64,000 bases of DNA from Protoeuglena noctilucae (lineage: Eukaryota). This document shows, piece by piece, positions 3,001-57,823 of this stretch; the stretch's first letter is position 1, and each line of letters starts with the position of its first letter. The notes under the pieces were generated by a model that worked only from the letters and a program-made list of their open reading frames with translations, was not told the origin of the DNA and searched no databases. The DNA lies in contig OY253686.1 in the NCBI GenBank assembly GCA_958009085.1, forward strand, positions 558,001 through 622,000, in the 5' to 3' direction. Position numbers and translations under genes: made by a program.

Positions 3001-6000
3001 ACACCAACCACCCCACCCGCACCCGCACCCGCTGCCCTGCTTCCCCACCCCTCTCCCTCACCTCCGCCCCCTGCAGCACCCACATCCTACCCCCTTTACT
3101 ATCAATTCAACCCCCCTCCGCCCCACCCACCCCATAACCCCTCACCTCCGCCCCCTGCAGCAGCTGGGCCCTCCTGCCCTCTGCCTCCCCCACCAACAGC
3201 GCGTCGTCTATCCCGCAAGTGAACCCGAACGTCTGCAAATATCCCGTAAATAGTCGAGAGAAACAAGCGAGGAGCTTGCCAGCTGCCTCGTCACCATAAA
3301 GCTCATGCACGGCGTGCACAAGACCGTTTTTGCCGAACTGTGCTTTATCGATCACCCCAGCCAGCACGTCGTTACCCCGCACGATGAGCGTCGCCTCGTG
3401 GTTCCCCTTTCCCCAATACGCGGCCGGCACCTTGCCCCCGCATTGCATGGTCATCGGGGGCATGCCGCGCGTGAGCCACCCCAGCACCGCGCCCACCACC
3501 TGCTTGCCCGTCCACATCGGCCGGGGTTTGAGGACCGCCGGGGGTGGCAGCGGGGATTTGAATGCGTCTGCAGCCACCGCGCGCGTGGGTGCGCACGCCA
3601 GATACACCAGGTGCGTGAACTGGGCTCTTGTCAGAAACGCGTCGCGGCGCGTCAGAAGGGTAGCACCGAACACGTGGTCCTGGATGAGACCGCGGATGGG
3701 CTTGCCGTCTGTCGGAACGATGTATTGGTGGTCGGCGTGGACGATGTGGTAGCCCTCGGCGCGAGCCAAGTGATCCTGGGGGAGGTGGAGGTTGATCTCG
3801 TCCCCGTCAAAATCTGCGGGTGTGATTAGAGAGGGGATGAATTTTATAATAATAGTAGTAATAATTATAATATAAAAATAACAAAAAAAAATCAACCACG
3901 ATAAATTGCCATAAAATAAACAAAGAAGAAACAAAGAAGAAAGAAGCTAACCGTGTCCGGGCTCATACGAAGAGATTCAAATGTCAATAGGTCCTCATCG
4001 CCCTTTGGCTCGGAACCCAGTGCTTTTAATGGTGTAATCACGGCCCGGACACGCAAGTGGGGATGCGAAGGGGTGCACACAGACAGTGATGAATGCATGC
4101 GGATGGAAGTACATACAGCACAGTACAATGCATTAATATTCATTATCATTATCACCATCACGCACTCACCGGCGTTGAAGGTGGAGCAGTTGGCGTAGTG
4201 CATGCGGATGGTGCGTTCCCCCCTCAGCACCCGCGCCCGGTGCGCCATCAGGCCCGGCTTGTGCAGCGTGGGCTGGCGATTGGTGAGCATCAAATCACCG
4301 TCCATCAAGTGACGATACACCACCTGGGGGGCATAGGGACGGGGCATTAGAGAGTACTAGGGATGGTAAGTTGATAGTATGTTCATATTAACATGTGTTA
4401 ACCAATCGCTCGCCAGTGACCAACCACTCTACCCTTTATGAACACAAGCAGACACATTTACACCACCCATTCACCACACACCATCCAACCACCAATCATC
4501 CCATCAACACCCACCCCCACCCCTTCACCTGCGTCCTCCCCCTATCCGCCCTCGCCCCCCCCACCGCCCCCGCCTCCGTGGCTCCCCTCAGCAGCCCCTT
4601 GGCCAGCGCCTCTCTCTTATCTTTGCTCATCCTTTCCAACAACACCACCCGGCCCCTATCATCCTCGACCGCCACTGCGCCCGGATGCTCCTCCGCACCC
4701 CGCACCACCAACGCACGCAGCCGCTCCACGTTGTGTGGCGTCACGCGCTCCGGGAATGACAGCTTCTTGGCGAAATAGGGCGGCACGCCTATCTCCCCGG
4801 GGCTCAGGTACACGTCGGGGGAGATGACGGAGCGGGCGGCAAAGTTGACGCGCTTCCCCATCATGTGCATGCGGAACATGCCCTCCTGGGGGGTGAGGGA
4901 GAGTTGGGTTAGAATTGTTACAAGTAGTACTAATTTGTAATCATATAGATATACTATAATCAAATCATAAAGCCCCCTCATCCTTCTCGCCTTCTTCTCC
5001 AGCCTCTGCCGAATCCCCGGCGGCGCGGCCTTGTCCCCCTTCCCCGCCGTCTTTGAATCGATCAGCGCGTTGACCGCCCCCTGCAGCTCCAGCCACCGCT
5101 GCACCGACCGCCCCAGCCCCTCGCTCCCCATCGCCAGCAGGTCCAGCGACGTGGTGATGGCGCGCTGCAGCGAGGTGTTCTGTGCGTGTTCAAACACCTG
5201 GTCGCCGATGCGCGAGACGGGGCGGAACTTGTTGGGGGCCACGGGGAGGGTGCGCAGGAAGAAGAGGCGATAACCATGGGGGGCCTGGGTGGGGAAAGGA
5301 GAGAGGGGTTATATACCATATATATAATACTATAACTGATAGCCCACAACCAATACTTGCCTCGGCAGCGGTCGCGCGCCCGTTGGTGAAGGCCCCGAAC
5401 AGGTACCGCAGTGTGCGCCACTCCTTGGACCAGAGGAGCTTGAGCATCTCCTCCGCCTGGGGGTGGGCGAATGAGGGATTACTATAATTACTATGCATGG
5501 TGTTGTATGCTGCGTGGATATAGTGACGAGAACCAGTAATGGCCAGTACAAGGACATGATGCTAGGTAAATTTACAAACAACACTCATCAAGTATTGCTG
5601 AAATGAATCGGCACTTTAACAGCAATCGCAACGGCAATCACGCCCACCCCCCGCACCTCCGACGGCGTGACGTACTTGGGCCTCCGTTTCTCCACCCCGC
5701 CCTTCCCGCCATCCGCGCCCCCCGCACCATCCTCGCCGCTGCCCCCCATCTCTCGCGATCCCGTCTTTTTCGACGATATGCCGCTCTTCGCTGCGTCAAA
5801 TCCCTCGATGCCCCCCTTGTGGTCCGAACCCTCGGTCTGGGGATGCATGGGGAGGGTAGGTTGTGAGCGGAGCCGGACCCCTAGTCCTAGGCTAGAACTG
5901 GCGAGCAATAGGCCTGAGGCCTAAGCTGTGTGCCCTTTGAAGCGAGTCAGTCAGTCAGTAGGTTGTGAGCGGAGAGTTGAGGAATGTGCTGTCGGTGATG

Positions 6001-8138
6001 TGTGTAAAAACTCGCGCACCCTCCAGGCCATCTCCGCGCGCTTTCTATACTACCTACTCCCACACCCACTCCCCCTCACATCTCACCCGCACCCACTCTA
6101 CCCACTCTCACTCCCGCCCCCCCTCACTCCCACACCAACTCCCACCCCCACACCCGCCCCTCACCTCCCCTTCACCCCCACACCCCCTCTCACCCCCTCC
6201 CGCCCCTCACCTCCCCCTCACTCCCGCTCCCCTCGTTCTCCCTCGTCCCTTCCGATGACCCATTCCCATCACTTTCGCTCCCCTCCTCCCCACTCATGTC
6301 ATCCCCGCTCCCCTCCCCCTTCACGCCACCGCCATCATTTGCGTTTTTCGATTTCCCCTTCGTTGGCTTCTTGCGGGACGCCTTTGGCTTCGACAGCTCC
6401 TCTGCCGCCTGGTCTTCGATCGCCTGCAAGGGGTTTTGTAACGAAAATGTTCATTAACATGGACGGTCAAGTGAGATGCAACAGCCAGATGTGCAATCGT
6501 CCACATGTTACCATAACTGCCACCTTATGTGCCGGCTAACATACCAACCCCACTGCCACCCCCACACCCCACCCCCACACCCCACCCCACACAACACCGC
6601 ACGCAACACCCCAACCCCACCCCCAACCCTCGCCTGCGTTGCCTCCGCCGCACTCGACCTCAGAATCTCCAACACGCTGTGCACCACCGTCCCCCGCACT
6701 TTGTTCGCAGCTTCCCGATTGGCCGCCAACGGCATGAGGAACAGCTTGGCGTATCCGTCCTTGCGCAATTGGGGACTGTGCGCGCCACAGTTGGCGCACT
6801 TGCCGGCCGGAGCGGACGCCAGCAACTCTCCCGCGAGCGCCCGCATCGATCCCTGTGCGTGCGTGCACAGCCGCGCCCTCCCCAGCGCCGCCGCCATCTC
6901 TGGCGCCTCCTCGTCAGAAACGTCCTCCCGCTCCACCACGCCGTCCGCCAGGCCCAGGTCCTCCCCGAATAGTTTCTTGCCCATGGCGGAGCGGGCGGAG
7001 GAGCGGGGGAGCTCCATGGCCGTGGAGACTGGGTGGGGTGGTGTGAGGGGTGGGGTGGGGTGGTGAGTGATGTGAGGGGTGGTGGTAGGGATGAAAGCGG
7101 GGGTGAGTGATGTGAGAAGGGAGTAGTAGTGGGGAGGTGTCTTGGCGTCATAATGCTTACTGCTTGAGAGCAGAGTCGTGGGATGATGCGAAACAACCCA
7201 ACTGTTCATCACACCCCACATCCCACCGAATCCAATCCAACCCTCATCCCACTCCACCCCATCTCATCTCAGCGCATCTCTCACCTTCCCCCAGCATCAG
7301 CGCGCGTGCCCGTCTCCGGTAGTGGTCTACCTCCGGCCCTGCCGTGCGGAAGTGGAAGCAGTGGAGGCACGTGGCGCGGAGGAGCTTGTACAGGAACGGG
7401 AACACGAGAGGGTTGTACACTGCGGCGATGGGGGGAAGGAGAGAGGGTAATACACTGCGGCAATGTGGAGCTCCGAGGTTGTTAGTAATCTCTATATAGG
7501 GCCTATAGAGACGAAGTGCTTGGCGTGGGCAAGCCAAGCGGCCCATGGAAACAAGGCTGGGCCCTGCGTACGGGAAAGCTCCTCGCACCTGGGACGGGCA
7601 GCTCGATGTGGCCGAAGTGACCCGGGCACTGCATGTAGCCCAGGTTGCACGTGGCTGCGAGCGCGCAGGGTGGGTGAGGTCGCGGCGCGGCAGCCGTGCG
7701 CAGCTGCCGCTTTACGGGGCCAGCAACCGCGGGTTATCGTAGCTATCATGATATTCGATCGAGAACAAGAGCGCGCCGGCGGCAAGCAGGCACTTGGAGG
7801 CCGCGCGAGGCCGGGCCGCTCACTGCACGTGCCGAGCGACTCGAGGGGCCCCAGCGCGGGGTCGTACAGGCCACTGGGAACCGGGTTGTTTTGGCTGTCG
7901 AATATGATGGGCGAACTGATGCGCTTGACGCTCAGCTTGCGCACCTGCGGCGCGCGGCGACGCGGGCTGGTCAGCCGGCAGCCGGTCGTGGGCCTCGGCG
8001 CGCCGGGGAAGCGCGGCGGGGCGGCGTCCGGCACTGGCAATCCGCTCTTAAGCAACACACCTCGTCGTCCGTGTAGAAGCTGAACGTGACGCCCTGCACG
8101 GAGGTCGTGACGACCTCCGGGCGCGCGCTCGGCGCCAT
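1..8138 (-). CDS. RPA1: RNA polymerase I largest subunit, about 20 exons, 3' end runs off the window
   Basis: ATG at 8138 ([35 protein letters not shown]). Spliced exons give [62 protein letters not shown], catalytic [60 protein letters not shown] and [34 protein letters not shown]. These are Pol I-type variants of the motifs. Confidence 0.96.
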
Positions 8139-12021: not shown

Positions 12022-14852
12022 TCACCCCTCCTCCCCCTTCCCCTCCCCCGCCAGTCCCGATACCCCGCCCGCACCCCCTACCCCTGACGCTCCACCCGCG
12101 TCCCCCACCCCTCTCCTAGCGTTGGCCATACCGTGCAAGAGCAAGTCGGTGGGTAGGTGCCATCGTGACCTCGCCCCCGCCCTGTCAACAAATCGCCACT
12201 CCAGCGCCGCCGGGATGTGAAACGGCGGCTCGTCGTCCTGAAAAAGGTTCGAGTCCGGCGGGGGGTCGTAACCCCCTTCTGGAAAAGGCGCGCCGGCGGG
12301 ATTCGATCCGTGACCTCGGGGAGGGGCCGGCGGTGGAAGATCCGAGGACGGCCCGGGTCCCATTGCGGTGCTCTGCGAGACACGCAGATTAGAGGGCGTG
12401 GAATCGGGTGGGCAGGTGTGATCTTTGCTGTGGCACAATCGCAGAATGGTGAGCGGCACATGGAGGTGCTGTCGAGCAATAAAGGTCACGATTACAACAG
12501 CCAAGCCGCATCCCACTGCGCCCCGACAGCTGACGCCTCACCGGCGCCCCGCCCCTCGTCGCCCCCGTCGCCCATGCCACCCACGCCCCCACATCCCACA
12601 CCCCACCGACCCCAGCTGTGGCACTCCCCACCCCCATCCCAGTCGCTGCCTGGGCTCTTTGCAGTCTCCCCACCCCCCCAACCCCGGACTGCATCGACGC
12701 ATGCCCCCCCTGGTTTGTCCCAGTCGCGACGTTGGCTGTCGCTGTCGTGCCAATGGCATTGTCGCTGTTCGCACTGTCGGCGTTTGGAACTCCGTCGGGC
12801 TTGTTGCGATGCAATGCGTCGCTGAGGAGGTGCCAGTCCCAGGGGAGGCCTCTGAGATGGCAAGGAAAGGAGGGTGTGGTGTTAATAGGTGTCAGTGGAC
12901 AGTGATACTACTCCGTAGTACCACTAGTATAACAATAAGTATTGATATAAGGTGAGCAAAACTGCAACACCTCGCGCCGCTCCCTAAGCACCGATCCCAC
13001 GCCCCACCCCGCTCACCTTGGTTGCTGCTCCAGTGGGGGCTTGTACGTCTTTGATTTCAAAAGGAGGTCCAGGTATTTAAATTGGAGCAGGAACCACAGG
13101 AAATCGAGCACCACAACCAGGTAAGCCAGGCAGACCCAGCCCACGTTGCTGCGTGGGGGAGGAGGGGGTGGCAGTGGGGGTGGCAGTGGGGGTGGCACTG
13201 AGGGTGTGTGCAAGCAGGAGATGCCTTGTGAACTATACATAAACGGTACATACTTTACAAACAATGACACATGCATCAAATCACAGCACATGCAAGTCTC
13301 ACTTCTGCGAGAAGGACATGACGCACGAGAACCCGAGCATGGCGAAGGAGCAGGGCACTCCGAGGGTGAAACACCAGAGGGCGAAGTGCCAGTCGGATTC
13401 AAATCGACTGGTCCAGACGATGTGGATGGGGGACTGGAGGGGAGGGGGGGCGTCCCCTTTCTGCAATGGTAAGGGTGGGGAGGGGTGGTGAGGGTGGTGC
13501 GAGGGTGATGCGACGGCAGTGAGGGTGAGGGTGAGGGTGATGCGATGGTGAGGGTGGCGAGGGTGAAGCGAAGAGGGTGAGTGTCATGGAATGGCAGTGA
13601 GAACAAGGGAATGGCAGTAAGGGTGAGTGGTGCAACAGAGAGGGCCGTGTTACGCAGCCTAGCATGTGCGAATCATCGCCACGGCCCCGCCACGACATCG
13701 CCCGCCTCGCCTTGTAGTGCTGCACGAACAGGAAGCACTTCTCCATGAACTTGGCCTCCATGTTTGGCGACACGAAGTGCCTCCCCACGCGCTGCATGCA
13801 CGCCGATATGAGCGTGCACGTGACCACGCTCGCCGTCATCAGCGACACCGTCAGGGCCACGGACGTGACGAAAAGGCCCTTGACCCACTGCGGGCGAGGG
13901 AGTTAAGGTAAATGGTTAGACAAACATGAGAAAATGTTGTGACAATGAGATGTGTCGAAACAATGTAACGAGACAGCTGATGCACAGACTGCAAGGCAGC
14001 ATATACACAGAAGATGTGCACTATATCTTTTACAAAGACAGAATCAAAGTGAGCGCGGATATCCATGTCAAACTTTGCAGCGCAGTGTGCAATGCTGGAC
14101 AGAAAGCGCGCCCCGCACCATGTATGCGTTGGGCGGGATGGCGAGGTTGACCATGCTCGTGACGGAGAAGATGCCAAGGAAGGCCCCGACGTGCGCGATG
14201 CCGGAGAGAATGTTGGTCTTCTCGTCAATGATGGTCCGGACGTGGGCGACGTAGCGGTCCCAAAGGTACCGCGCGTTCTCCACGGTGCGCTGCGCTGCGG
14301 GGATCGCGTCAACCAATAATTTAGTATACATGCTACCATTTGATTATCACAAGCGCGACTCGCGTGCAGCCTCTCACCGATCTCGGCCTCTACCCAGAGG
14401 CGCTCGTTGACGTACCGCTCCCTCTCGACCTTTCGCCAATCCATCTCGATCCTCCGCCTGCGCGGGTGACGCGTCAAACGGTTCTCAAGACGTCAGCATA
14501 AAAGGCGAGGCGTCCTCGCAATCCGGGCACCGCGGGGCCGCGGCCTTGTGGAAGCTCCGTCGTCGAGGGCCGTCCGCGCACTCATGCAAGCGCCCTCAAG
14601 CCTTTCCATCCCTCCCCTCACCCGTCCCTCTCGAATTCTCTCGCTTGGCTTGCATCCCACGCCTCGAGGCCTGCGAGGGGCCGCGCGGGCGGGTTGTTGA
14701 GAGCCAACGATGATGCACTGGGAATCCGCATCCGCCGATGGCTATAACCGCGAATGCCTGCGCGACGAGGTTCGTGGATTCAGATCGCAGCTCTCACCCT
14801 CCAGAAGAGACTGGAGGGCCTCGAAGGTGTGCTCCGCGATGCCCCCGGTCAT
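12022..14852 (-). CDS. Orai/CRAC-channel-like four-TM protein, paralog A (N at the selectivity-filter position)
   Basis: Assembled exons: MTGGIAEHTFEALQSLLEG|LEAWDASQAREFERDG|RRIEMDWRKVERERYVNERLWVEAEI|QRTVENARYLWDRYVAHVRTIIDEKTNILSGIAHVGAFLGIFSVTSMVNLAIP|TM2|RFESDWHFALWCFTLGVPCSFAMLG|TM4|GLPWDWHL. Exon structure is collinear with the two neighbouring paralogs. Confidence 0.75.
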
Positions 14853-17310: not shown

Positions 17311-19832
17311 TCACGGCTGCGAGTCTCTCCATCCGACGATCTCCGCCCGACCAGGGGACTGCGTCGATGCGGACGGCGCCCGCCAGTCCTCCCTACTCCG
17401 CCTCCCCATCGCACCTATGCCAGTCCCACCCCCACCACCTCCGGTTTCACTCCCACTCCCACCACCGTCCATTGCTCCATCCATCCCCCGCCCGGCCCCC
17501 GACACCGCCGCACCCCTCGCCCCGCCCCCATCCCCACCACCCACCCCTGCACCACTCCTATGCCCACCGCCCACCCCAGCCACCCTCTCCCTCGACACCC
17601 CAGCCGTCTCCGTTTCTCCCAAACCATCCAGCCCCGCCCCCTCTCGGAAACTCGTCCGCAGGCTAGTCACGCTCCCACTCCTGGCAGTGCGGAGCGTGGT
17701 GAGGGGGCTGGGTCGGTCCAGCCGCCCACCGGCATCGCTACCATCGCCATCGTTATCGCCATCGCCTCTCTCGCGGTACCCCTCGTCTCCGTCCAGGTAT
17801 GCGTCCGGCTTGAATGGCTCGTGGGGGTTGCGCGTGAGGTGCCAGTCATAGGGGAAGCCCCTGGGGTGGGGATAGGGGGGGTGAGGGTAGTGGTGGGGGT
17901 CGTGTGTGAGTTGTGGGGGTGCGTGGGGTTGTGTGGGGGTGAGTGGGGATGGTGAGGGTCGAGGGGATAACGACGGGCGATGAGAAGCTAGAGAGGGAGA
18001 AAGGTGGGTGCGCACCTGATCTCTGGCACGCCCTCCTGCTCACAGCCTACCCTCCTCACCTGATCTCAGGCACGCCCTCCTGCTCCCTGCCTAACTCGCG
18101 CTCCAGCACCGTGGAGATGTCCCTGGTCAGCAGCAGCCGCACCAATCGGAAGTGGCGCACGGCCATGACGACATATGCCACAAACAGCACGATCTCCATG
18201 TAGATCCACTCGTGGATGCTGGGGACAAGGCAGGCATGGATTGTGAGAACTATGACTTACAATTAAAAACAAGAAGATGACCGTCGTCTGTTTGATTCAA
18301 TCACTCATAACTCGCAGTCCGCCCCGCCTCGCCTGTTGGGGAACTTGATGGCGGCGATGAGCCCCAGCATGGCGAAGCAGCAGGGGATGCCGGCCATGAA
18401 GAGCAGCAGCGCGCGGTTCCAGTCTCGCTCGAACGACGTCGCCCACATCTTGTCAAAGGTGCGGGCGGGGCGGGGAGGGGCCACCGCGGCACCTGCCTGC
18501 GTGGAGGAGAGGCGGGGTGTGGCGCGTCGATCGCGACGACTATCAGTTGCCGATCGAGCTACGCAATGGTACTTGGTAAGTACCATTGCCATTATAAGGT
18601 GATAATGGCAATTAAGCACAGCGAAGACAGTCGGCAATTGGGTCCTCACCAACTCCACCCCTACTAACCCCCCTCTCCCCCACCACCCCCACTCCTCACC
18701 AGGTCGACCCCCCCCGTCCCCTTCTCCTTCGCCAGCGCCTCCTCCGCCAGCACTGCATCGTGCTGTGCTGCGTACTCCAGGCAAGCGTCGATGAACGCTG
18801 ACTCCGCCACCTCGTCCGTCAAATCCCTCCCCACACGTAGCACGCTCGCGGCCATGAGTGAAGATATGAGCATGGAAAGCATGAAACACGTGATGGCCAT
18901 GGCCACGGTCGCAGCCAATGCGGACTTGAGGTTCTGAGGTGGGGGAGACGGGGGAGAGATGGGGGTGGAGGGAGTGGTTGGTGATGGCGGTAGTGACGGT
19001 GGGGAGAAGGGTGAAACGGATGGCAGGAGGGATTGGCGGCGCGGGGGATGGAGTGGAAGGGCAGGAAAGAGACGGTGCCCGCAGGCTTGGGAGAGGGGCG
19101 CAAGGGTGCGTGCCATGCATGCGCTGCAGATGGTTGCGGGCCGCTCACCGGCAGCGCGTCGGCGGGGATGCCAAACTCGACGAGTCCGACGATGGAGAAT
19201 CCGCCGAACAGCACGGCCGTCCCGGCGAACAAAGTCAGCAGCTCCACTTTCTCCTCAATCATCGTCCGCGTATGGTCCACGAAACGCTTCCATATGTGGC
19301 GCGCGTTGTCCAGCAACCTCTGCTCTGCGAAGTGAAATCGCGCGCAGAAACTCCGGCGATGCGGGCGCGCGGGGAACTGCAACAAATCGCACTTGCACCC
19401 TGCCGAGCTGCTCGCAGCGTCCTCACCCGCTTCCGCGTTCCGCCAGTTGCGCTCCAGATGAACTCTGCTGAGCTCGTTATCGCGCCACTCCAGGTCCTCG
19501 ACGCGCCTGCGAGTTTGGAAGCAAACATTTGCATCGTGGGCAGCTGCTCAGGCTTGAAGAGCGACGAAGGGCTCGCGGCAATGCGACCTGCCGCTCACCA
19601 GTGACGATTCTCAGCCATGCGACGCCGCTTGACCGCGATATTCAGGCCTGCGGGCGGCGTGGTTTGGGAACCGGGCTTGCCAAAGACAATTGTAAGCGAG
19701 ACAGGTGGACCCTGCACACCCCGGCCCCGGCCAAGTTGCGTCGGCGAGTCTTTCACACACTCTTAGTCTATCGACATCGGCCTCACCCTCGAAGAGGGCC
19801 TGCGCGGCCTCGGAAAGCACAACAAAACTCAT
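17311..19832 (-). CDS. Orai/CRAC-channel-like four-TM protein, paralog C (keeps the E selectivity-filter residue)
   Basis: MSFVVLSEAAQALFEG|LNIAVKRRRMAENRHW|RVEDLEWRDNELSRVHLERNWRNAEA|EQRLLDNARHIWKRFVDHTRTMIEEKVELLTLFAGTAVLFGGFSIVGLVEFGIP|TM2|PPRPARTFDKMWATSFERDWNRALLLFMAGIP|TM4|GFPYDWHL. Confidence 0.8.
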
Positions 19833-21412: not shown

Positions 21413-21829
21413 GCGCATTGTCGCTCAGTCTCGCAGATGGTAGTGCGGTGCCACGCATAGACCACGTCGATGGGTTAGTCGAACTAACATTGGTCTCTTT
21501 CAGCGCATGGCATGTAGCATCGCCATGCGTCCTGCTACCCTACCCTCTGCCATTGCGTCGCTGTGACTGGGTTTTAAGTCCCGGCATTATTGCGTGCCAC
21601 GTACGTATTCTTATCGTGGCGCGTTCTTAGCAGCTTGTGCCCGCGCACCCCATTCGGTGTTATAGTTGAATCGATATCGCTTTCAACAAACCTTGTGGGC
21701 CCCACGCGCCCCAACATCATCCGTCCAACCGCCCTCACGGCACCATCCCATTCCCCACCACCAAGTCACGCCTGTCGACACCCCTACCCCTTGCTTCCTC
21801 CAAAACCCTTCCCCGTCTCTCACCGCCCT

Positions 21830-34886: not shown

Positions 34887-35576
34887 ATGGCGTCGACCGC
34901 GGCGGGCGAGGGGGACCGGGACGGGGGTGGCAAGGTGAGGATACGGACTTGATGTCTCGCTGTCGCTGCACTGCGCGCGCGAAGGGGAGAGCTGGCGGCG
35001 GCCTTTCTTGTGCAAACCCGGCCGCCTCCATCTGCCCCCAGCCCGACGTGCAGTTTGGCTCCGGGGCTACTTTCCAGCTCAAGGGAGAGGACCACACGCT
35101 GGCGAATGCGGGCGAGTGCCGGCAGCCGTGCCTGGCTGCTCTTGTGAGGCACGCGGGAGGGAAACGAGGCTGTTTCGCGACATTTCCCACAGCGACACGC
35201 GGTCTTTCTGTCGCAGTGCGCTTTATGCTGAACAAGGACCCAAACGTGGAGTTCACTGGCTACAGCATACCTCACCCGTCGGAGCAGGTCGTCAACGTCC
35301 GCGTGCAGGTGACACGTCTGGGCGCAGCAGAGGCCCTGGGCTTGCTATCTCTGCTCTCAGCCTACTCCTGTCAGAGAGAACTTTGCTACGTAAGCAGGAC
35401 GCGAGCATTGATTCGATGCTTCGCCGCAGACCACGGGGCAGGTGTCGGCCCAGCAAGCCCTGCGGCAAGCCCTGCTCAACATCAAGGACGCGTGCGCTGA
35501 GATCAAAGAGCGGTACCAAGAAGCGGTGCAGGAGGCGGAGAGGGCGAAGAATCAAGAGAAAATGGACGAGGATTAG
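34887..35576 (+). CDS. RPAC2: RNA polymerase I/III shared subunit AC19 (RPAC2/POLR1D), 4 exons
   Basis: ATFQLKGEDHTLANA|VRFMLNKDPNVEFTGYSIPHPSEQVVNVRVQ|TTGQ...ALRQAL, stop at 35574-35576. Confidence 0.92.
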
Positions 35577-44994: not shown

Positions 44995-47900
44995 CCAATC
45001 ACTCATCATCACTCCCATCACTCCCGTTCCCACTTACCAACCCAGGTGACGATCGTGATGAACCGGGAGTTCAAGGGCGCGGGCTTCTTGGTGACCCCCA
45101 AGGAGGTGGTCTTCCGCGACTTCGAGGTGGGCGAGACCTATCGCCAGAAGATCACTCTGACGAACGTCTTTTGGACCAAGAACACCTTTAAAGTCATGGA
45201 GATGCCGCCGGAGGTTCGAAACTTCTTTGACGTCGAGTACAGCTTCCCCGGATTGGTGTCTGCGGGCATCACCTGCGACGTCTACGTCAACTTCGAGCCG
45301 AAAAGGAACGAGGACATCGCGACGCACATCCCGATTATCACCCAAACGGGACCGGTCACCGTGCCCGTGCGATGCCTGCGCAAGCGCGCCACTTTGTCCC
45401 TGTCCGCTCCCATCGTCTATTTCCAGAAGATCACCATCGGAGAGGCGAAAGAGCAGCAGGCGCAGATCATCAACAACGGGGCATTGGCGGTGGATTTCAA
45501 ATGGGAGGTCGTGTCGATCGAATCGGCGCTCAAGGAGCCCCCGGCGGAGCAGGTGAGGGGGGGTGGGGGAGGGTTAGGTTGGGTGCATGTGGGTACGGGG
45601 GTTGTATGTATGTATGTATGTTTGTTTGTTTGTTTGTTTGCCTCACACCCCCCAAAGCGCCTGATGGAGCTCAAAGAGCCCATCATCCACCCCCTCTCAC
45701 CCCCACTCACCTTCACTCACCCCTCACCCCCTTCAGAAGAGCCTGATGGAGCTCAAAGAGCCCATCACTCACACCCTCTCACCTTCACTCACCCCCACTC
45801 ATTATCACCCTCACACCCCCTCTCACCAACATTCACCTCCACTCACCCCCCCAGAAGCGCCTGATGGAGCTCAAAGAGCGCGGCGCGGACGACTGGGCTT
45901 TAGAACGGCTCTTCAAGGAGAACATGAGCGCCGCTCGACTGAAAGAGCTTGGATTTTTACTGTCGGAATGGAAGGGGTCCGTCAAGCCCTACAGCCGCAC
46001 CTCCTTCAGCGTCAGCTTCCAGCCCCCCGGCATCGGCATTTGCACGGCCAAGCTCCGTGCTGCCTTCACGGTGCACGATGATGTCAAGGAATATATCCCC
46101 GAAGTGGAGTTGGAGCTGCGGGGCGACGCGGGGGACTTGCCGGTGGTGTGCGAGAGCCAAGTGATCGATTTGCAGTGTATGATACGGGGGCAGGCGTATA
46201 CCGTGCCATTGCGCATGGTCAATCGCAGCAGCGTGGCCATCAAGTGTTTCCTGCAGCGAAACCAGGTCATGCAGAAGTATCTGCAAGTGTACCCGGGGGT
46301 GGGGTACGTGCAAGCACACGACACGTTCGCCTTCAGCCTCAAGTTCAAGGCGAGTGGTTGTGGTGTGGGATTAACTATAAGATTGATATGATTGTTTCAC
46401 CATGTTATGTATATAGCATGATTGTTTCACCATGTTATGTATATAGCATGTCAGCCTCAAGTTCAAGGCGAGTTGGGTGGGGTGGCTGGGGTGTGTGGGA
46501 TGAGATGGAAGTACAATGATGCACTAAAGCTAGCTATATGATTATCCAGCGATGCATGAATTGTAACACTATCAGTGATGCATTCGCGGTCTCCCTGATC
46601 GACTCCCACCAACACCGTATCATTACTATGTTCCCCACCCACTACCCGCAGCCGACGTCGGAGATGCTGGACGAGATCAAGGGATTCGCCAAAGTGTCGC
46701 GTGACGGTGACGACGGTGACTTTGAGATCCCCATGCGCGTGGCGGTGCCGGACCAGGCGCTGCCGGCCACCTTCACGCTCAAGGGGAGCCTGGTGAGTGA
46801 ATGGATGATGAGAGAAGAAATAAGGTTGCTATAACTGTGATTGCTATGGCCACCTCCACGCTCAAGGGGAGCCTGGTGCGTGGGAGATGGGGGATGAGAG
46901 ATGAGACAAGGAGTAACAGTGATATAACTGTGAAGGGTATGGTTACCTTCAAGCTCACTGTTCTCTCGCTATCAACATCAATTATCATCATCGCTTACTC
47001 CCTCACCCCAGACCACCTCCGACATCCGCCTGGAGCCCACTTCGTTGGACTTTGGCGACTGCGCGCTGGGCGAGGCCACCGGCCTGCACCTGACGATGAC
47101 CAACCTGGCGCGGCTGCCCCAGAAATACGGATTCTGCAATCTGAGGAGGGGGCTGCAGGTGCAGCCCAACGACGGGTTCGGGACGCTGCTGCCGGGGCAG
47201 ACCGTGTCGTGCGTGGTGTCCTATACACCGGACATATCGGGTGAGTGATTAGGGGATTATTAATGTAGATATGTTAGATGTTGACGACGCTTGCCGTGTC
47301 GTGCGCGGTGTCCTATACACCGGACATATCGGGTGAGTTTATACAGTAGTTATAAACGGATCGATTCATAACAAACAGGCACTGTGTCGTGCGTGGTGTC
47401 GTACACGCCAGACATATCGGGTGAGACAGCGACTGGGGGAGGGTGGATATGAGTAACCATTACTCAACTTATACACTGTCTCTTGCCCCATTCCCCTCAC
47501 TCCTCACCTCTCACCCCCCCCAGGCACCCACCACTTCCCCTTGGACCTCCGCACCCTCACACCCCACCTCACCTCACACCCCCACTCAGCCCACCTCCCC
47601 GCTCACTCTCATATTTGAACCCCCCCCCCCCCCCCCCCAGGCACCCACCACTTCCCCTTAGACCTCCGCACCCTCCTGGGCCGTCACTTCGTCATCCCCT
47701 GTCGCGCCGTGGTGACTCCGTTACCCGTGCTATTCGACAAGAATAGAGTCACCATGCCCGTCACCGAAGTGGGGAGGAGCTCGCAGACATCCGTGAGATT
47801 GAGGAACCAGAGCGCCACGCACTGCTACACATTCCAGGCGAGTGTGTGGAAGAGTAGTTGTGGCTAGTATATGAATGGTTATGGAGTAGAGGTGAGGGTT

Positions 47901-50745
47901 ACAGCTGAGTACCACGCACTGCTACTCATCCCAGGCGAGGGCAGATGCAGGGGTTGTGTTGTTCTTGCTGTTGTGTAGGTTAAGAAGAGAGAGTATGCAA
48001 CTGCTACCTCACAGCCTCACCCTCACCCGCACCCCCACCCTCACCCCCACCCCTCACTTTCCCCCACCACAGTTCACCGTCCCGCTGTCTTCCCGCATCA
48101 AGGTCTCCCCCAATGTCGGCCGCCTGTCAGTCAACTCCACCATAAGAGTGGAGGTTTCCTACAGTCCTAAAGAAGAGGACTTTGGGGAGCTGGGGGAGGC
48201 GGGGATCATGAAACCTGGGGGGGAAATGAGGGGTGAGGGTGGGGGCGAGGGTGGGGATGGGGTTGGGATAGAAATGACTAAGGGGTTGGACTGTGTAGTA
48301 CTGCTGTGTTGAGTTGTTTTTAGACCAAACACATCACTGCACTGCAGCAAAGCACATCAAACACCACACCACACTCCACCCACACCCACCCCTGAACCCC
48401 TCCAGACGCCGGCAGCGAGGTGGCCCCCGGCACGGAGGACGCCCACCTGTGGGTGCAGCGGGGCGACTGGACGGTATCGTGCTTTCTGCGGGAGGAGGAG
48501 TACGTGCCCGAGGGACCCAGGCTGTCGATCAAGCCCAGCGCGGCACGGGAGATGGAGAGCTTGAAGCAGGACGCCAAGGACGCACCGGGGGTGGAGGTCA
48601 TGCCCATACACCTGCAGGTGAGGGTGGGGAGAGGGGTGGGATGGGGGTATGGGCATGCGCTTGCAGGTTAGGGGTGGGTGATGGTGGGGTGATGGTGCGG
48701 TAAGTGTCAAGGTCATGCCCAGTTACTCTCACAATTACTTCACTACTGCGGCAGCTCTTGCGCTTAGCCATTACCCTCACTGCCACCCCCACTGCCACCC
48801 TTACCCCCACCCCCACACATCCCCACCCCCTCCCCCATTCACCCCTCAGGTCGTCACGGCCGCCAAGCTCCCCGAGCTGGTCTTGGACGGCCCCGTGGAG
48901 TGGCGCCCCGAGATCGCCAGCTACCAAATGAACTTCGGGGAAGTGGCATTGGGACAACGAGTCCTCAAGAACCTCACCGTGTTCAACAACGGGCCGCGCA
49001 AGACGTTCCCAGTGTTATCGGCCCTCAATCACCGCGAGACATTCTCGGTGGTCAATCCAGCCCAGGAAATCGCCCCATTGACCGGGCACGGCCTGCTGGT
49101 GGCTTACTGCCCTGAGAAGGCGGGCAAGCACAGGGAGTTGCTGACGCTGTCCAGCAGGCACACGTCGGTGAAAGTGGCGCTGGTGGGGACGGGCATATCG
49201 CCGTCGTTCGAAGTCGACAAGGACCGGTGAGGGTGGCATGGTATGTGAGATAAGACTGTATGTGAGATGAGAGCTGTTGGTATATGTAGCAAACAAGGAC
49301 CGGTGAGGGATTGTGGGAAGTGGGTTGGGATTTATATGGTATGCGACTGAAGCCACACCTACGCCATCCATTCCACTACCGCTGCCCTCACCCTCCGCCC
49401 CTCGCAGCCCCACCACCCCTCACACCCCCTCACCACCCCACCCCTCACACCCCTTCACCCCTCACCCCACCCCTCACACCCCCTCACCACCCCCCAACCC
49501 CTCACCCCTTCCCCCCCCAGCCTGGACCTGGGCGATGTGTACCGCGGAGAGACCGCCACGGAGTCCTTCACCATCGAAAACACCTCTCCGTTCCCGCTCA
49601 AATACAAGCTGCAACTGAAGGAGGGCGCGCACACCAACATCGGCGGCACGCCCGTGTTTGTGGTGAAGCCCAGTGAGGGAACGATTCCCAGCGAGGGGGC
49701 GCAGGAGGTGGAGGTCACGTTCCTGCCGGACCATGAGTACCTGTACTTCGAGAACGTGCTGGTGAGGATGGGCGGAATGTGATGTGGTGTGATGTGCTGG
49801 TGAGGGTTTGAGTACCTGTACTTCGAGAACGTGCTGGTGAGTGGACTATGTGATGTGGTGAGGTGATGCAAGGGAGTTGACTATGAAGGGCCGTCGTGTG
49901 CGAGCGTGCTGATGAGAGAACGGTGCTGCGTGCATGTGACTAACATCGCATAACAGCCAACGTGCTCCTGTAGTCCACAAACAATCCTAACAACACTCAC
50001 CCACCTCTTCCCCCTCACTCGTCCCCCAGAGTGTGTTGGTTCCCAATCAGGAGGAGGACGTGACCGTGAGCCTGCAGGGGCGGTGCTGGGAGAAGGGCAT
50101 GTACATTATTGGGGGGGACCGAGTCACGGCGATCGAGGACCCGTTCAAGTCCAAGCAACTCGCCAAGGTGAGGGGGGGGTGGGGGTGCGGGTGGTGGTAA
50201 TCTCCAGCCCGCGATCAACCCCAGTGATATCACCCCTCACCCCTCATCTCACCACCTCACTTACCACAACCCCTCACCCCTCTCCCTCATCCCCCTCCTT
50301 GCAGTTCGAGGGCCTCAAGCCCGCCATCAACCTGACCCTCACCTTCCCGAACGAAGTCTTCCCGGGCGAAGTTTCCAAGGGGACGCTCGAAGTGGGCAAC
50401 TTGAACGCCCTAGCCGGCAAGGAGAAAGGGGACTTCCAAGTGGTCGAACTGAGCCACGCCAACAAGGAAGCGGGATGGTCCGTGTCGCCCGAAAAGGGCA
50501 CGGTCGACCCCGGCCGGCGCGTGCCCCTCACCTTCAGCTTCCGCTGCCCCGACGACCCCGGCCGGCTCAACCTGGCCTATCTGGACATGGGCGGGTGGAT
50601 CGAGGCGTCGATCGACGTGGTGTTGAAGGGAGGGTTCCCGGCACCTAAGGACGCGGGGGGTACGGTGTACCGCATCCGGGCCAGGTGCTACATCAAGCCG
50701 GCGAGGAAGAAGGCGGCCAAGAAGGGGCTCAGGTTCAAGGGGTGA
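40858..50745 (+). CDS. CFAP74: Cilia- and flagella-associated protein 74 (central pair), about 20 exons
   Basis: Coiled-coil N-terminus with GLNPYE|VFRQR, then the ASH-type domain PKEVVFRDFEVGETYRQKITLTNV...FPGLVSAGITCDVYVNFEPKRNEDI...QTGPVTVPVRC, LPQKYGF, VQPNDGFGTLLPG, and VTFLPDH. Confidence 0.88.
44904..44993. repeat. (TAA)30 microsatellite in a CFAP74 intron
   Basis: Perfect trinucleotide run. It produces the spurious poly-N/Y/I ORFs. Confidence 0.97.
46388..46450. repeat. 30-bp perfect tandem duplication in a CFAP74 intron
   Basis: ATGATTGTTTCACCATGTTATGTATATAGC occurs twice in tandem. Confidence 0.9.
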
Positions 50746-51143: not shown

Positions 51144-52334
51144 TCAAATCATGTCGACGTCGACGCCGAGCCTCCACAGTCGCACCGTGCCGTCGTCCCC
51201 GCACGTCGCGAGCACGCCATCGCCGCCAGGACGCCACTGCACGCAATTCACGTCCCCGGGAGGGTGCGCTTCTGGCACGGTCGCTAGAACCTCATACCCA
51301 CCCCCGCCACTGTCCCCATCCCAGTCGCCATTGCGCCCAAACACCTTGACGCTGTTGTCCCGCGAGCACGCCGCGATGCGCCCCTTCTCGTCCATATCCA
51401 CGGCGTACACGGGGCCCCCGAAGTAGCCCTGCAAGGTAGCTGCATGGCGCCACACCCCCGCCCCGTCCGGCCGCCACACCTTCACATCCCCAGCCTCCGA
51501 ACACGTCGCCATCTCCGATCCGTCCGGACGAAAAGAAACCATCCATACCGTCGACGCGTGGCCCCCCGACGCCTGACTCAGCTCTTGCATGCGTTCCCAT
51601 CGGTCGGGCCCCGCCTCTCGCCAAAGGCTCGCGGTGTCGTCGTAGCTGCACGACGCGAGGATCTCTCCGCCCGGATGCCATTTCACGCATTTCACGTCCT
51701 GCGCGTGCGCGCCCTGCTTCACGTCGACGGCCTCATACTCCCCGCCCCCGGCGTCCTCCCAAACCCACACTGCGCGCGGAGACGCTGCGGCATGCTCGTA
51801 GTCGGTCACCGCGCGATTTAATATATGTATTCGCATCGTTACGCGCCGCTCGCCTGACTTGTCGCGGCTGCAGGTGGCCACCAGGTCGTTGCGCGGGTTG
51901 CACGCCACGCCCTTGACCTCGTTCTCGTGGCCCTCGAGCAGCCCGACCTGTTCCCACACGTCCCCGGACTGCTCCCAGACCGCCACCGTCGCATCGAAGC
52001 TCCCGGACAGCAGCCGCCGCCCGTCGCGCGTCCAGCTCACCGCCCGGACCGTCCGCGCGTGGCACTTCTCCAGCACCGCCGCGCAAGCCCACCGCCCGAA
52101 CTGCGCGTTGAAGCTCCACACGCGCACGGTTTTGTCCGCGCCGCAACTCGCCAGCTGCGACCCGTCCGGCGACCACGCCACCGCCCACACTGCAAAGAGG
52201 GTCGACGCGGGTCGATGCGCGCTGGGAGCCGTTCGCTTTGACACGCATCGCGCCGGCGATGAAAGCATCTCCGACGCACCGCAGCCCTCGTGGCCCTCCA
52301 GCGCCTGCACGAGCTCCAGCCCGCCCGCCGGCAT
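51144..52334 (-). CDS. CIAO1: Cytosolic iron-sulfur assembly WD40 protein CIA1/CIAO1, 3 exons
   Basis: LEGHEGC|VWAVAWSP, LASCGADKTVRVW, HARTVRAVSW, SFDATVAVW, LEGHENEVK, ATCSRDKS|VWVWE, HAQDVKCVKWHP, LASCSYDD, GHASTVW, AH..DVNCVQW. Confidence 0.95.
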   Translation of the reverse strand: MPAGGLELVQALEGHEGCGASEMLSSPARCVSKRTAPSAHRPASTLFAVWAVAWSPDGSQLASCGADKTVRVWSFNAQFGRWACAAVLEKCHARTVRAVSWTRDGRRLLSGSFDATVAVWEQSGDVWEQVGLLEGHENEVKGVACNPRNDLVATCSRDKSGERRVTMRIHILNRAVTDYEHAAASPRAVWVWEDAGGGEYEAVDVKQGAHAQDVKCVKWHPGGEILASCSYDDTASLWREAGPDRWERMQELSQASGGHASTVWMVSFRPDGSEMATCSEAGDVKVWRPDGAGVWRHAATLQGYFGGPVYAVDMDEKGRIAACSRDNSVKVFGRNGDWDGDSGGGGYEVLATVPEAHPPGDVNCVQWRPGGDGVLATCGDDGTVRLWRLGVDVDMI

Positions 52335-56600: not shown

Positions 56601-57823
56601 TCAGAGGTGGGCTACGCGGGGTGCCTCTCCGTGCCTCGTGTCGTGACGGTGCTGGACGGCAGACTTCACCAGGAGCCACTGCCAGAACTGAAGCGGCTGA
56701 GGAGGGGGCAGGGGTGGTACGCGTCGTGGGTGGACGTCAGCCCGGAGCAGCCCGTGGTGAGTTGTAAGGGTGGGCGGATGTGATCAGAGATAGTGAATGC
56801 GCGTGATGAGGGATGGGGGTGGTTGATGCGTGTCGTTCAGTGCACCCCAGCACAACTGTCTTCCCCTGCCACGTCCCTCCCCATCGAGCGCGACTCTGTA
56901 TTGCTAGCATCCCGTCCAGCATCGCCTCTACAACCACGTCACTTCCTTTCCCTACCCTCCACCGCAGCCCGTGGAGCGTGTCTCCGGCCGTGCCTTAGAC
57001 ATCGAAGTCATCATCGACCGGGGCCAGGCGTCCGCGGCGGGGCTGCTGTTCAACTCTTTCAGGCGAGCACGCGTGGGACAATGTCACCGAGGCACCATGC
57101 AACGCTGTGCAGTGGCACGGCAGCACGGCATCCGTGGGTCATATCGAGTGGGTCATACCGAGGGTTATACCGAGCAACCGTCATGGTCACGCATCGCATC
57201 CTTTGACCACGCCCATTGCACGTCTTTCATCCGCCACCGCTTCCCTCCTGTCCTTCGTGTCCCTCCCATCCCATCCCCGCTGCCCTGGTCTCCCCGCTCG
57301 CAGTGACGACTGCGGCAGTGCCGTGGTGGTCTACGATTGGGACCGAGCGATGCTGGAAGTCATATTCGAGGTGCCGCCGAGAGATGCCGAGGCACCGGGG
57401 CAGATCGCCAAGAGGGTGGGGGGACCGGTGGAAGGTGAGAGACGCTGCATTGGGCGGTGAGCATGTGGGCCGGTGGAAGGTGAGAGGTGCTCCTGGGGTG
57501 GTTGTTGACTGGCTGTCGAGCACTGGGGCAGATAGCGACCAAAGGTTGTGGTTCGCTCAACCCTGCGCCCCACCCACCCACTCATCGCCCCCACCCCTCC
57601 AGTGGGAGAGGACGAGCCAGTCAAGCTGCGCGTGCTGATCGACCACTCCTGCGTGGAGATCTACGAGAGCGCGGGACACGTGCTCTCCACGCGCATCTAC
57701 CGGGGCCGCCAGGGGCCCCTGGAGCCAGGAGCGGCCTTGGGCATCGAGTTCGTGGCCTACGGCGGCACGGCGCATCTCGTGCGCGTCGAGGCGTGGGAGA
57801 TGGGCACGTCGTGGGAGAACTGA
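53688..57823 (+). CDS. Glycoside hydrolase family 32 beta-fructofuranosidase (invertase), about 11 exons, no signal peptide
   Basis: [63 protein letters not shown]...[34 protein letters not shown]. Confidence 0.93.

What the first reader, a model, noticed from the sequence alone, without database searches (positions are those of the whole stretch)
4989..57064. Unusually high frequency of GC-AG introns (19 found, roughly 15%)
GC donors are needed to keep frame and homology at: 4990, 5360, 6633 (RPA1); 13710, 18332 (Orai A, C); 20584, 20822 (both CYP23 introns); 25957, 29686 (NOP2); 34024 (CTNNBL1); 35112 (RPAC2); 37151 (CysA); 38325, 38997, 39749 (FKBP42); 46350, 47838 (CFAP74); 51853 (CIAO1); 57063 (invertase). 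Nearly all read AG|GC(G/A)AG. Several are fixed by conserved motifs (LEKK|EG, SRDKS|VWVW, HTLANA|VRF, SHQ|RGTLSM). My rough total is about 130 introns, whereas GC-AG is typically about 1% in model eukaryotes. This suggests relaxed or altered 5' splice-site recognition, and standard gene predictors would mis-model these genes.
Basis: partly seen in the sequence, partly recalled or inferred. Interest (0 to 1): 0.7.

Follow-up and report, generated by a model that had tools for sequence, protein, structure and literature searches.

The report
Many real GC-AG introns, green alga
About one intron in six in this stretch of a marine green alga starts with GC instead of the usual GT. This is real, and matters mostly for gene annotation, because other GC-rich algae are already known to do the same.

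Summary
All 19 sites read G|GC on the claimed strand, and 17 of 19 read AG|GC(G/A)AG.

Evidence per site:
- RNA contigs from marine metatranscriptomes, with zero mismatches, splice exactly at 5 sites, and no GT placement is possible there.
- A sixth site (37151) fits contig lengths exactly.
- Six more sites are backed by unbroken alignment to homologues.
- Two are backed by intron positions shared among three tandem paralogues.
- Five rest only on my own gene model.
- None is refuted.

The GC share is 19 of about 101-130 introns (15-19%), and 5 of 18 RNA-shown junctions. Plants average 1.2%.

In a control that allowed GA or GG donors instead of GC, 0 and 1 high-confidence introns appeared, against 10 for GC.

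These are ordinary U2-type introns. GC donors match the rest of the donor consensus better than GT donors do (A at -2 in 17/18 against 45/81), which is the known compensation for the +2 mismatch. None looks U12-type.

The organism is a core chlorophyte with no close sequenced relative.

High GC-AG shares are published for Emiliania (56%), pelagophytes (14-17%), Symbiodinium and Chlorellaceae (6-7%). This is a new member of a known kind. Nothing here shows an altered spliceosome, and no genome was available to inspect U1.

The parts
4886..4990 (-). GC-AG intron, 105 nt, RNA polymerase I largest subunit gene (aag|GCGAGA). In frame and stop-free.
   Evidence: In a profile of 28 RPA1 homologues the GC model beats all 304 in-frame GT alternatives by at least 18.8 bits, and beats retention by 25.7 bits. 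Also predicted by the finder.
5285..5360 (-). GC-AG intron, 76 nt, RPA1 gene (gag|GCAAGT)
   Evidence: Model only (26 nats better than the best GT alternative). The homologue profile cannot decide: GT alternatives score +4.1 bits, but they have donor scores of -10 and -13 and lengths of 46-52 nt.
6424..6633 (-). GC-AG intron, 210 nt, RPA1 gene (cag|GCGAGG)
   Evidence: Model only. It lies in a variable region where the profile cannot decide: the best GT alternative scores +1.7 bits but has poor signals.
13434..13710 (-). GC-AG intron, 277 nt, Orai-like paralogue A (aag|GCGAGG)
   Evidence: The two tandem paralogues have a phase-0 GT intron at nearby columns (163 and 171 against 176) of a gapped stretch of the alignment. 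Weak Pfam Orai-1 hit on the flanking exon.
18219..18332 (-). GC-AG intron, 114 nt, Orai-like paralogue C (cag|GCGAGG)
   Evidence: It falls in the same alignment column (225) and phase (2) as GT introns of paralogues A and B.
20584..20677 (+). GC-AG intron, 94 nt, cyclophilin gene (cag|GCGAGG)
   Evidence: Skipped in RNA contigs of X1, X2 and X4. No GT placement is possible. Pfam Pro_isomerase runs 12-86 | 88-136.
20822..21013 (+). GC-AG intron, 192 nt, cyclophilin gene (aag|GCAAGC)
   Evidence: Skipped in RNA contigs of X1, X2 and X4.
25957..26176 (+). GC-AG intron, 220 nt, NOP2 gene, low-complexity N-terminal part (aag|GCGAGT)
   Evidence: Model only. One low-depth X3 contig (25889-26207) runs through it unspliced, but X3 also holds unspliced GT introns.
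29686..29839 (+). GC-AG intron, 154 nt, NOP2 gene, low-complexity C-terminal part (aag|GCGAGT)
   Evidence: Model only (12.4 nats better than the best of 418 GT alternatives).
33933..34024 (-). GC-AG intron, 92 nt, CTNNBL1-like gene (cag|GCACGT)
   Evidence: Pfam CTNNBL profile runs 9-61 to the last residue of the upstream exon and 62-164 from the first residue of the downstream exon. An RNA contig piece ends at 33931.
35112..35216 (+). GC-AG intron, 105 nt, RPAC2/AC19-like gene (cgg|GCGAGT). In frame and stop-free.
   Evidence: Skipped in RNA contigs of X1, X2 and X4. Pfam RNA_pol_L_2 runs 2-16 | 18-47.
37151..37249 (+). GC-AG intron, 99 nt, ABC-ATPase (CysA-like) gene (cag|GCGAGT)
   Evidence: Indirect RNA support. 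The piece left of joint 37416->37599 is 172 letters. With the 5-nt repeat CCCAG this puts the exon at 37250-37419. The X2 record 9 length of 1247 equals 394+194+162+249+170+78. My finder missed it.
38167..38325 (-). GC-AG intron, 159 nt, FKBP42-like gene (aag|GCGAGC)
   Evidence: Skipped in RNA contigs of X1, X2 and X4.
38861..38997 (-). GC-AG intron, 137 nt, FKBP42-like gene (aag|GCGAGT)
   Evidence: Skipped in RNA contigs of X1, X2 and X4. The homologue profile favours it by at least 10.3 bits.
39645..39749 (-). GC-AG intron, 105 nt, FKBP42-like gene (aag|GCGAGA). In frame and stop-free.
   Evidence: Model only. Retention scores -8.7 bits. One GT alternative scores +6.2 bits by removing a lineage-specific insertion, but its donor scores -1.4 and its acceptor -5.3, against +5.4 and +3.5 for the GC model.
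46350..46651 (+). GC-AG intron, 302 nt, CFAP74 gene (aag|GCGAGT)
   Evidence: Against Chlamydomonas FAP74 (7n6g_3H), the upstream exon aligns 27-165 to 823-961, up to its last residue. The downstream exon aligns 22-45 to 981-1004, so it starts near 960. Pfam agrees.
47838..48072 (+). GC-AG intron, 235 nt, CFAP74 gene (cag|GCGAGT)
   Evidence: Against FAP74, the upstream exon aligns 4-57 to 1087-1140. It is 65 aa long, so it ends near 1148. The downstream exon aligns 1-39 to 1148-1186.
51770..51853 (-). GC-AG intron, 84 nt, CIAO1 gene (cag|GCGAGC). In frame and stop-free, and hidden inside a 466-codon open frame.
   Evidence: Against human CIAO1 (3fm0_A), the upstream exon aligns 49-165 to 14-128. 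In the unspliced frame the match resumes at residue 258 with chain position 128, so the 27 to 28 residues encoded by the 84-nt intron have no counterpart.
57063..57303 (+). GC-AG intron, 241 nt, GH32 invertase-like gene (cag|GCGAGC)
   Evidence: In a profile of 15 GH32 homologues the GC model beats all 92 in-frame GT alternatives by at least 12.5 bits. The alignment is gapless across the junction. Retention shifts the frame.

Best explanation
These are ordinary major-spliceosome (U2-type) introns whose donor is GC instead of GT. They make up roughly 15-20% of the introns in this window.

Shown: the GC introns are removed from mRNA, and GC donors carry a stronger match to the rest of the donor consensus (AG|GCGAGT).

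Inferred:
- U1 snRNA recognises them in the normal way, and the extra pairing at -2, -1 and +3 to +6 makes up for the C:A mismatch at +2.
- The high share is a lineage trait of this GC-rich marine core chlorophyte. T-to-C changes at +2 are tolerated and drift back and forth, as the GT/GC differences at shared intron positions of the three tandem Orai-like paralogues suggest.
- The share holds genome-wide. Only 64 kb was seen.
For: - RNA contigs with 0 mismatches skip 5 GC-AG introns with no possible GT placement, beside 13 GT-AG introns. A sixth GC intron fits the contig lengths exactly.
- Homologue collinearity or profile scores support 6 more. Paralogue intron positions support 2 more.
- A gene finder blind to T/C at +2 independently of the 19. 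Each of those beats its best in-frame GT alternative by 6-26 nats.
- Control with signals trained on GT introns only: allowing GC adds 266 nats and 10 high-confidence introns; GA adds 61 nats and 0; GG adds 118 nats and 1.
- Consensus, GC against GT donors: A at -2 in 17/18 against 45/81 (p=0.002); AG at the exon end in 17/18 against 41/81 (p=0.0004); T at +6 in 8/18 against 15/81 (p=0.03).
- None of 101 introns has a U12-like donor.
- Literature: compensation in GC-AG donors (PMC1557818); high GC-AG shares in GC-rich algae (PMC4028052; bioRxiv 10.1101/2024.10.30.620910; PMC6310983 supplement file 8).
Against: - Five sites (5360, 6633, 25957, 29686, 39749) have no evidence independent of my own model.
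- At 39749, 5360 and 6633 some GT alternatives score slightly higher in homologue profiles (+6.2, +4.1, +1.7 bits). The same test also gives +2.4 bits to a wrong GT model at the RNA-proven 38325 junction, so such margins are noise.
- The consensus comparison is biased. In the RNA-only subset (-2A in 4/5 against 9/13) the difference is not significant.
- RNA comes from contigs of one study (at most 3 samples), and contigs drop minor isoforms.
- One X3 contig is unspliced across the 25957 intron.
- My blind finder over-calls GC: 37183 is wrong by RNA, and 892-1065 is probably a GT donor at 1038.
- The genome-wide share is extrapolated from one window.
Confidence: 0.85

Rival explanations
1. The splicing machinery itself is altered, for example through a changed U1 5' end, U6 ACAGAGA box, U5 loop or Prp8. 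In that case C at +2 would be read as well as T.
For: - The GC share (15-19%) is two to three times that of green algae with equal or higher genomic GC: Micractinium 7.0%, Chlorella sorokiniana 5.7%, Micromonas pusilla 5.6% (PMC6310983 supplement file 8). Base composition alone therefore does not set the level.
- Intron interiors are only about 54% GC.
Against: - GT is still about five times more frequent than GC, although C is as common as T inside introns.
- GC donors need a better surrounding consensus, as expected if the +2 mismatch still costs something.
- The annotation-based figures for other algae are likely underestimates (PMC4028052 shows predictors under-call GC).
- No snRNA could be examined.
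Confidence: 0.07
2. The window is a local fluctuation, and genome-wide the share is only the 5-7% seen in other GC-rich green algae.
For: Only 64 kb and about 13 intron-containing genes were seen. GC donors cluster in some genes: both cyclophilin introns, 3 of 6 in FKBP42 and 3 in RPA1.
Against: - 19 of 130 against 7% gives p=0.002, and 19 of 101 gives p=7e-5.
- GC donors occur in 12 different genes spread over 52 kb.
Confidence: 0.1
3. Many of the unverified GC sites are modelling errors, with true GT donors nearby or no intron at all, so the real share is well under 10%.
For: - My finder makes false GC calls (37183; probably 892-1065; several weak ones at 8-12 kb and 58-61 kb).
- Four claimed introns are in frame and stop-free, so retention would not break the frame.
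Against: - 14 of 19 sites have support independent of the model, and none failed.
- Even counting only these 14 over 130 gives 11%.
- Retention lowers homologue scores at 4990 (-25.7 bits) and 39749 (-8.7 bits). It leaves 27 to 28 residues (the 84-nt intron) without a counterpart in CIAO1.
Confidence: 0.05
4. They are U12-type (minor spliceosome) introns, or copies of a mobile intron family that happens to carry GC.
For: blastn among introns gives 260 short hits.
Against: - No donor among 101 introns matches RTATCC. All GC donors are GC(G/A)AG or GCACG.
- The blastn hits are 20-116 nt stretches of G-rich or C-rich simple repeats shared equally with GT introns, not full-length copies.
Confidence: 0.01

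Closest known systems
U2-type GC-AG introns of model eukaryotes (0.4-0.9% of introns in human, mouse, fly, worm and Arabidopsis; 1.2% mean in 121 plants): PMC1557818, PMC6310983 (passages read)
   Same: GC..AG ends, a U2-type donor consensus, and a stronger match at the other donor positions than in GT donors. GT/GC switching between homologous introns is also seen.
   Different: The frequency here is 10-15 times higher (15-19% of the window's introns).
Emiliania huxleyi (haptophyte, 65% GC): 56% GC-AG among 241 hand-curated junctions, 9 GC junctions verified by RT-PCR (PMC4028052, passages read)
   Same: A GC-rich marine alga in which GC donors are common, acceptors stay AG, and gene predictors mis-model genes.
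   Different: There GC is the majority donor; here GT still dominates about 5:1. The lineage is also unrelated: the window is a green alga by its NOP2 and RPA1 relatives.
Pelagophytes Aureococcus anophagefferens (14-17%) and Pelagomonas calceolata (about 14%) (bioRxiv 10.1101/2024.10.30.620910, passages read)
   Same: Almost the same GC-AG share. Those authors also attribute it to high genomic GC.
   Different: Those genomes have 0.2-0.9 introns per gene. This window has roughly 2 introns per kb and up to about 20 per gene. They are stramenopiles, not green algae.
GC-rich green algae in published annotation counts: Micractinium conductrix 8057 major non-canonical against 106289 canonical, Chlorella sorokiniana 7090 against 117336, Micromonas pusilla 496 against 8087 (PMC6310983, supplement file 8 rows seen)
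   Same: The same phylum and the same direction of effect: shares of 5.6-7.0% against the 1.2% plant mean.
   Different: The share here is two to three times higher. Those counts include AT-AC and come from annotations, not from my own check. The paper's text does not discuss them.
Symbiodinium minutum (dinoflagellate): GC and GA donors beside GT, with GC nearly as frequent as GT (PMC4083563, passages read)
   Same: Widespread non-GT donors in an intron-rich alga.
   Different: Here GA donors are not used (0 high-confidence in the control). There is no G preference after the acceptor (7 of 18, read). The donor signal is strong, not weak.

Membership tests
U2-type GC-AG introns | The intron begins with GC, ends with AG, and is absent from mature RNA. 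| tested here: met
   5 of 19 are skipped in RNA contigs with only the GC..AG placement valid. One more fits contig lengths. The other 13 have GC..AG in the sequence and a frame-keeping model.
U2-type GC-AG introns | The rest of the donor follows the U2-type consensus, matched better than in GT donors. | tested here: met
   A at -2 in 17/18 against 45/81. Mean matches 5.33 against 4.42 of 6 (Mann-Whitney p=1.5e-6). The GC set was chosen partly by consensus, so the effect is inflated.
U2-type GC-AG introns | Removal by the U1/U2/U4/U5/U6 spliceosome. | not testable with these tools
   No genome is held, no snRNA is in the window, and no experiment is possible.
U12-type introns | Donor RTATCCTT (or GCATCC for the rare U12-type GC-AG) and a TCCTTRAC branch site close to the acceptor. 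| tested here: not met
   None of 101 filtered introns starts with [AG]TATCC, and no GC donor reads GCATCC. The branch-site motif was not searched.
Genomes where GC is the majority donor (Emiliania, Symbiodinium type) | GC donors about as frequent as GT donors, or more frequent. | tested here: not met
   19 of 101-130 in the window, and 5 of 18 among RNA-shown junctions.
Introner-like mobile introns | Introns are near-full-length copies of one another. | tested here: not met
   blastn among 101 introns gives only short (about 20-116 nt) G-rich or C-rich repeat matches, shared by GC and GT introns.

The most novel reading that the evidence does not exclude
This lineage may depend less on U1 pairing at +2 because its introns carry a second definition signal. 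That signal is a G-rich repeat arm after the donor and a complementary C-rich arm before the acceptor, which can pair and bring the two splice sites together. T/C at +2 would then drift almost freely, as between the Orai paralogues. It would be a structural aid to splice-site pairing in a green alga, with a GC-AG share beyond that of any plant-lineage genome whose count I saw (passages; six supplement rows).
Probability: 0.12. Interest if true: 0.65.

Novelty: new member of a known kind. Interest (0 to 1): 0.4.

Why it matters
Gene finders that assume GT donors would break or shift a large share of genes in this genome. 12 genes in this 64-kb window have at least one GC intron. Four of these introns are in frame and stop-free, so they would be silently read as coding.

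For intron evolution, the window adds a green-algal data point at 15-20%. That lies between Chlorellaceae (6-7%) and Emiliania (56%), at only about 62% genomic GC and about 54% intronic GC. Base composition alone therefore does not set the level.

The Orai paralogues show GT/GC flips at shared intron positions within one gene family.

Tried and rejected
- The whole genome is not held, so there was no U1/U6 inspection and no genome-wide count. The window has no Rfam match.
- Read laying allows one call and hid 27 joints, so 25957, 29686, 34024 and 39749 could not be read from RNA.
- Six loose-end beginnings were looked for in the window as 12-mers. None matched, so they come from other organisms or chimeras.
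- A scan of metagenome contigs for relatives of the RPA1 exon returned 40 loci. Full-length matches reached at most 55% identity, so no related genome was available to compare donors.
- PDB and Pfam searches with the short exons flanking 39749 and 57063 gave nothing. 57063 was then settled with a homologue profile; 39749 was not.
- NOP2 homologues were fetched and a profile built. Both NOP2 GC sites lie in low-complexity tails, so no alternative test was run.
- The first tree run did not finish; FastTree was used instead.
- Earlier notes of this scan held nothing on this genome. The word search returned only Ostreococcus intron notes, which do not bear on this.
- Six literature searches found no paper in the held library that describes a high GC-AG share in a green alga in its text. 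Subscription journals are not covered.
- Rejected: U12-type introns, introner copies and GA/GG donors.
Full report
**What is in the sequence.** The window is 57-68% GC in 4-kb steps. It is densely packed with short exons and introns on both strands. At all 19 coordinates the stated strand reads G|GC. 17 of 19 read AG|GC(G/A)AG; the exceptions are cag|GCACG at 34024 and cgg|GCGAG at 35112. AGGCRAG occurs 36 times on the two strands against 20.8 +/- 4.5 in 100 dinucleotide shuffles (1 shuffle reaches 36). 17 of the 36 are the claimed donors.

**RNA evidence.** No genome is held for the window. One search for sequencing runs found four marine metatranscriptome runs from one study that hold 16-25% of the sampled words of 25000-34999. 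I laid their contigs on 20400-40000, the 19.6 kb with the most claimed sites (10 of 19).
- Long pieces match with zero differences, so the organism itself is in those samples.
- The tool showed 15 joints and withheld 27.
- I tried every sequence-equivalent placement of each joint. Five can only be GC..AG: 20584-20677, 20822-21013 and 35112-35216 on +; 38167-38325 and 38861-38997 on -. Ten are GT..AG.
- Three more GT-AG introns (22386-22622, 22897-23089, 23516-23701, minus strand) follow from the piece boundaries and record coordinates of X1 record 2.
- RNA therefore shows 5 GC among 18 junctions.

**The 37151 site.** It is not among the listed joints, but two numbers fix it.
- The shorter side of joint 37416->37599 in X1 is 172 letters, that is a piece at 37245-37416.
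- The five letters CCCAG stand both before 37151 and before 37250. The joint can therefore slide to 37151..37249, and that is the only placement with splice-like ends (GC..AG).
- The full length of X2 record 9 (1247) equals the exon sum 394+194+162+249+170+78 under this model.
- I count this as indirect RNA support.
- Run X3 holds low-depth contigs that run unspliced through both GC and GT intron borders (for example 25889-26207, 27608-27824, 36620-36830). It therefore says nothing either way.

**Homology evidence, exon by exon.** Exons were passed only as unaltered window references.
- 34024: Pfam CTNNBL covers profile 9-61 up to the last residue of exon 34025-34207, and 62-164 from the first residue of exon 33609-33932.
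- 51853: the 84-nt intron is in frame and stop-free inside a 466-codon open frame. Against human CIAO1 (3fm0_A) the upstream exon aligns 49-165 to 14-128. In the unspliced frame the match resumes at residue 258 with chain position 128. The Drosophila chain behaves the same way.
- 47838 and 46350: against Chlamydomonas FAP74 (7n6g_3H) the flanking exons are collinear to within one or two residues.
- 4990: in a profile of 28 RPA1 homologues the GC model beats 304 in-frame, stop-free GT alternatives by at least 18.8 bits, and beats retention by 25.7 bits.
- 57063: in a profile of 15 GH32 homologues it beats 92 GT alternatives by at least 12.5 bits, and the alignment is gapless across the junction.
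- 13710 and 18332: the window holds three tandem Orai-like paralogues with shared intron positions. At alignment column 225, phase 2, copy C has the GC donor (18332) while A and B have GT. Near alignment columns 163-176, a gapped stretch, all three copies have a phase-0 intron; copy A has the GC donor (13710) while B and C have GT.

**Sites that remain model-only.** These are 5360, 6633, 25957, 29686 and 39749.
- The two NOP2 sites lie in low-complexity tails.
- At 5360, 6633 and 39749, homologue profiles give small advantages to some GT alternatives (+4.1, +1.7, +6.2 bits). Those alternatives have very poor splice signals or lengths of 46-52 nt.
- The same test gives +2.4 bits to a wrong model at the RNA-proven 38325 junction, so margins of this size are noise.
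- No site was refuted.

**An independent model and controls.** I wrote a two-strand Viterbi gene finder. It was first trained on Pfam-matched frames and the RNA-shown introns, then self-trained, with T and C at +2 scored alike.
- It introns (106 GT, 40 GC).
- It recovers 17 of 18 RNA-shown introns.
- It of the 19 claimed GC donors. It misses 37151 because a false antisense exon masked the true one.
- It also over-calls GC. 37183 is wrong by RNA. 892-1065 is probably a GT donor at 1038. Many weak GC calls sit in poorly modelled stretches (8-12 kb, 52-53 kb, 58-61 kb).
- Each of the 18 GC models beats its best in-frame GT alternative by 6.0-26.0 nats. The five RNA-proven ones span 6.0-14.6.
- With signal matrices trained on 64 GT introns only: allowing GC raises the total score by 266 nats and gives 10 high-confidence GC introns; GA gives +61 and 0; GG gives +118 and 1.

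**Share of GC donors.** There are 19 GC against 81 filtered GT introns, plus the RNA-shown 37420 intron. That is 19 of 101 (19%, 95% CI 12-28%). Both exceed 1.2% (p below 1e-14) and 7% (p at most 0.002).

**What kind of intron.**
- None of 101 introns has a U12-like donor.
- GC donors match the remaining consensus better than GT donors:
  - A at -2 in 17/18 against 45/81.
  - AG at the exon end in 17/18 against 41/81.
  - T at +6 in 8/18 against 15/81.
  - A at +3 in 3/18 against 1/81.
- This is the published signature of U2-type GC-AG introns, where extra U1 pairing offsets the +2 mismatch (PMC1557818, passages).
- The comparison is inflated because GC donors were chosen partly by consensus. 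It is not significant in the RNA-only subset.
- GC introns are somewhat shorter (median 137 against 190 nt, p=0.03).
- Intron interiors are about 54% GC, with C 0.27 and T 0.24. A free +2 position would give about half GC donors, so T is still selected, only less strictly than elsewhere.
- The introns are not copies of one another. The 260 blastn hits among them are short G-rich or C-rich repeats, shared by both classes.

**Organism.**
- The best named relatives of the NOP2 exon are Pedinophyceae sp. YPF-701 (78%) and Trebouxia (74%).
- For the RPA1 exon they are Myrmecia bisecta (65%) and Tetraselmis striata (59%).
- A FastTree of RPA1 puts the window beside the pedinophyte inside core Chlorophyta (SH-like support 99). 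This is one gene with long branches, so it is a lead only.
- No near-identical protein was in the collection. The metagenome scan found no full-length relative above 55%.
- I did not try to name the record.

**Comparison with what is known.**

| Organism or group | GC-AG share | Source |
|---|---|---|
| Five model species | 0.4-0.9% | PMC1557818 |
| 121 plants (mean) | 1.2% | PMC6310983 |
| Micractinium conductrix | 7.0% | PMC6310983, supplement file 8 |
| Chlorella sorokiniana | 5.7% | same |
| Micromonas pusilla | 5.6% | same |
| Tetrabaena socialis | 3.2% | same |
| Pelagophytes | 14-17% | bioRxiv 10.1101/2024.10.30.620910 |
| Emiliania huxleyi | 56% | PMC4028052 |
| Symbiodinium minutum | GC nearly equal to GT, plus GA | PMC4083563 |

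- The four green-algal rows are my ratios from counts of 'major non-canonical' sites, which include AT-AC. Several other algal annotations in that file show almost none, which looks like GT-only prediction.
- Six searches of the held library found no text describing a high GC-AG share in a green alga. Subscription journals are not covered.
- The finding is therefore a new member of a known kind. Its share is higher than in the six green-algal annotations whose rows I read in that file.

**Limits.**
- Only one window was seen.
- The RNA comes from assembled contigs of one study.
- Five sites are unverified.
- No snRNA was seen.
- The mechanism (normal U1 recognition with compensation, and neutral T/C drift at +2) is inferred, not shown.

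Noticed in passing
all introns of the window, e.g. 48618-48849 (+), 26765-27034 (+), 49227-49520 (+): Introns are G-rich in their 5' half and C-rich in their 3' half. GC skew is +0.28 against -0.38 over 101 introns, and +0.44 against -0.53 for the first and last 40 nt (p=2e-17). (GGGTGA/GGGGTG)n-like repeats follow the donor, and their reverse complement precedes the acceptor. Intron 48618-48849 folds end to end (z=-4.3); 13434-13710 does not (z=-1.0). A third of 96 introns have z below -2 against mononucleotide shuffles.
   Followed up: partly
13017-14457, 15346-16784, 17492-19506 (all minus strand): There are three tandem Orai-like paralogues with shared intron positions. Two shared positions carry GC in one copy and GT in the other two, which shows GT/GC switching within a young gene family.
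   Followed up: yes
4886-4990, 35112-35216, 39645-39749, 51770-51853: Four of the 18 GC introns tested are multiples of three without a stop codon, so retention would keep the reading frame. The CIAO1 intron is hidden inside a 466-codon open frame.
   Followed up: partly
37599-38165: One RNA contig (X1 record 4, 2560 nt) runs across the last exon of the plus-strand ABC-ATPase gene and the last exon of the minus-strand FKBP42-like gene. The two convergent genes therefore overlap or abut at their 3' ends.
   Followed up: no
55271-55918 (+): The GH32 invertase-like gene has a 216-residue glycine/serine/alanine-rich exon with no Pfam match. It sits between profile positions 196 and 197 of the N-terminal domain. 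It could be a real insertion or a mis-modelled stretch.
   Followed up: no
The third is doubtful, because the Pfam match ends 21 residues before that donor.
   Followed up: partly
25889-26207, 27608-27824, 36620-36830: Run X3 holds low-depth contigs that are colinear with the genome across intron borders. They are either unspliced RNA or DNA carried over in an RNA library.
   Followed up: no
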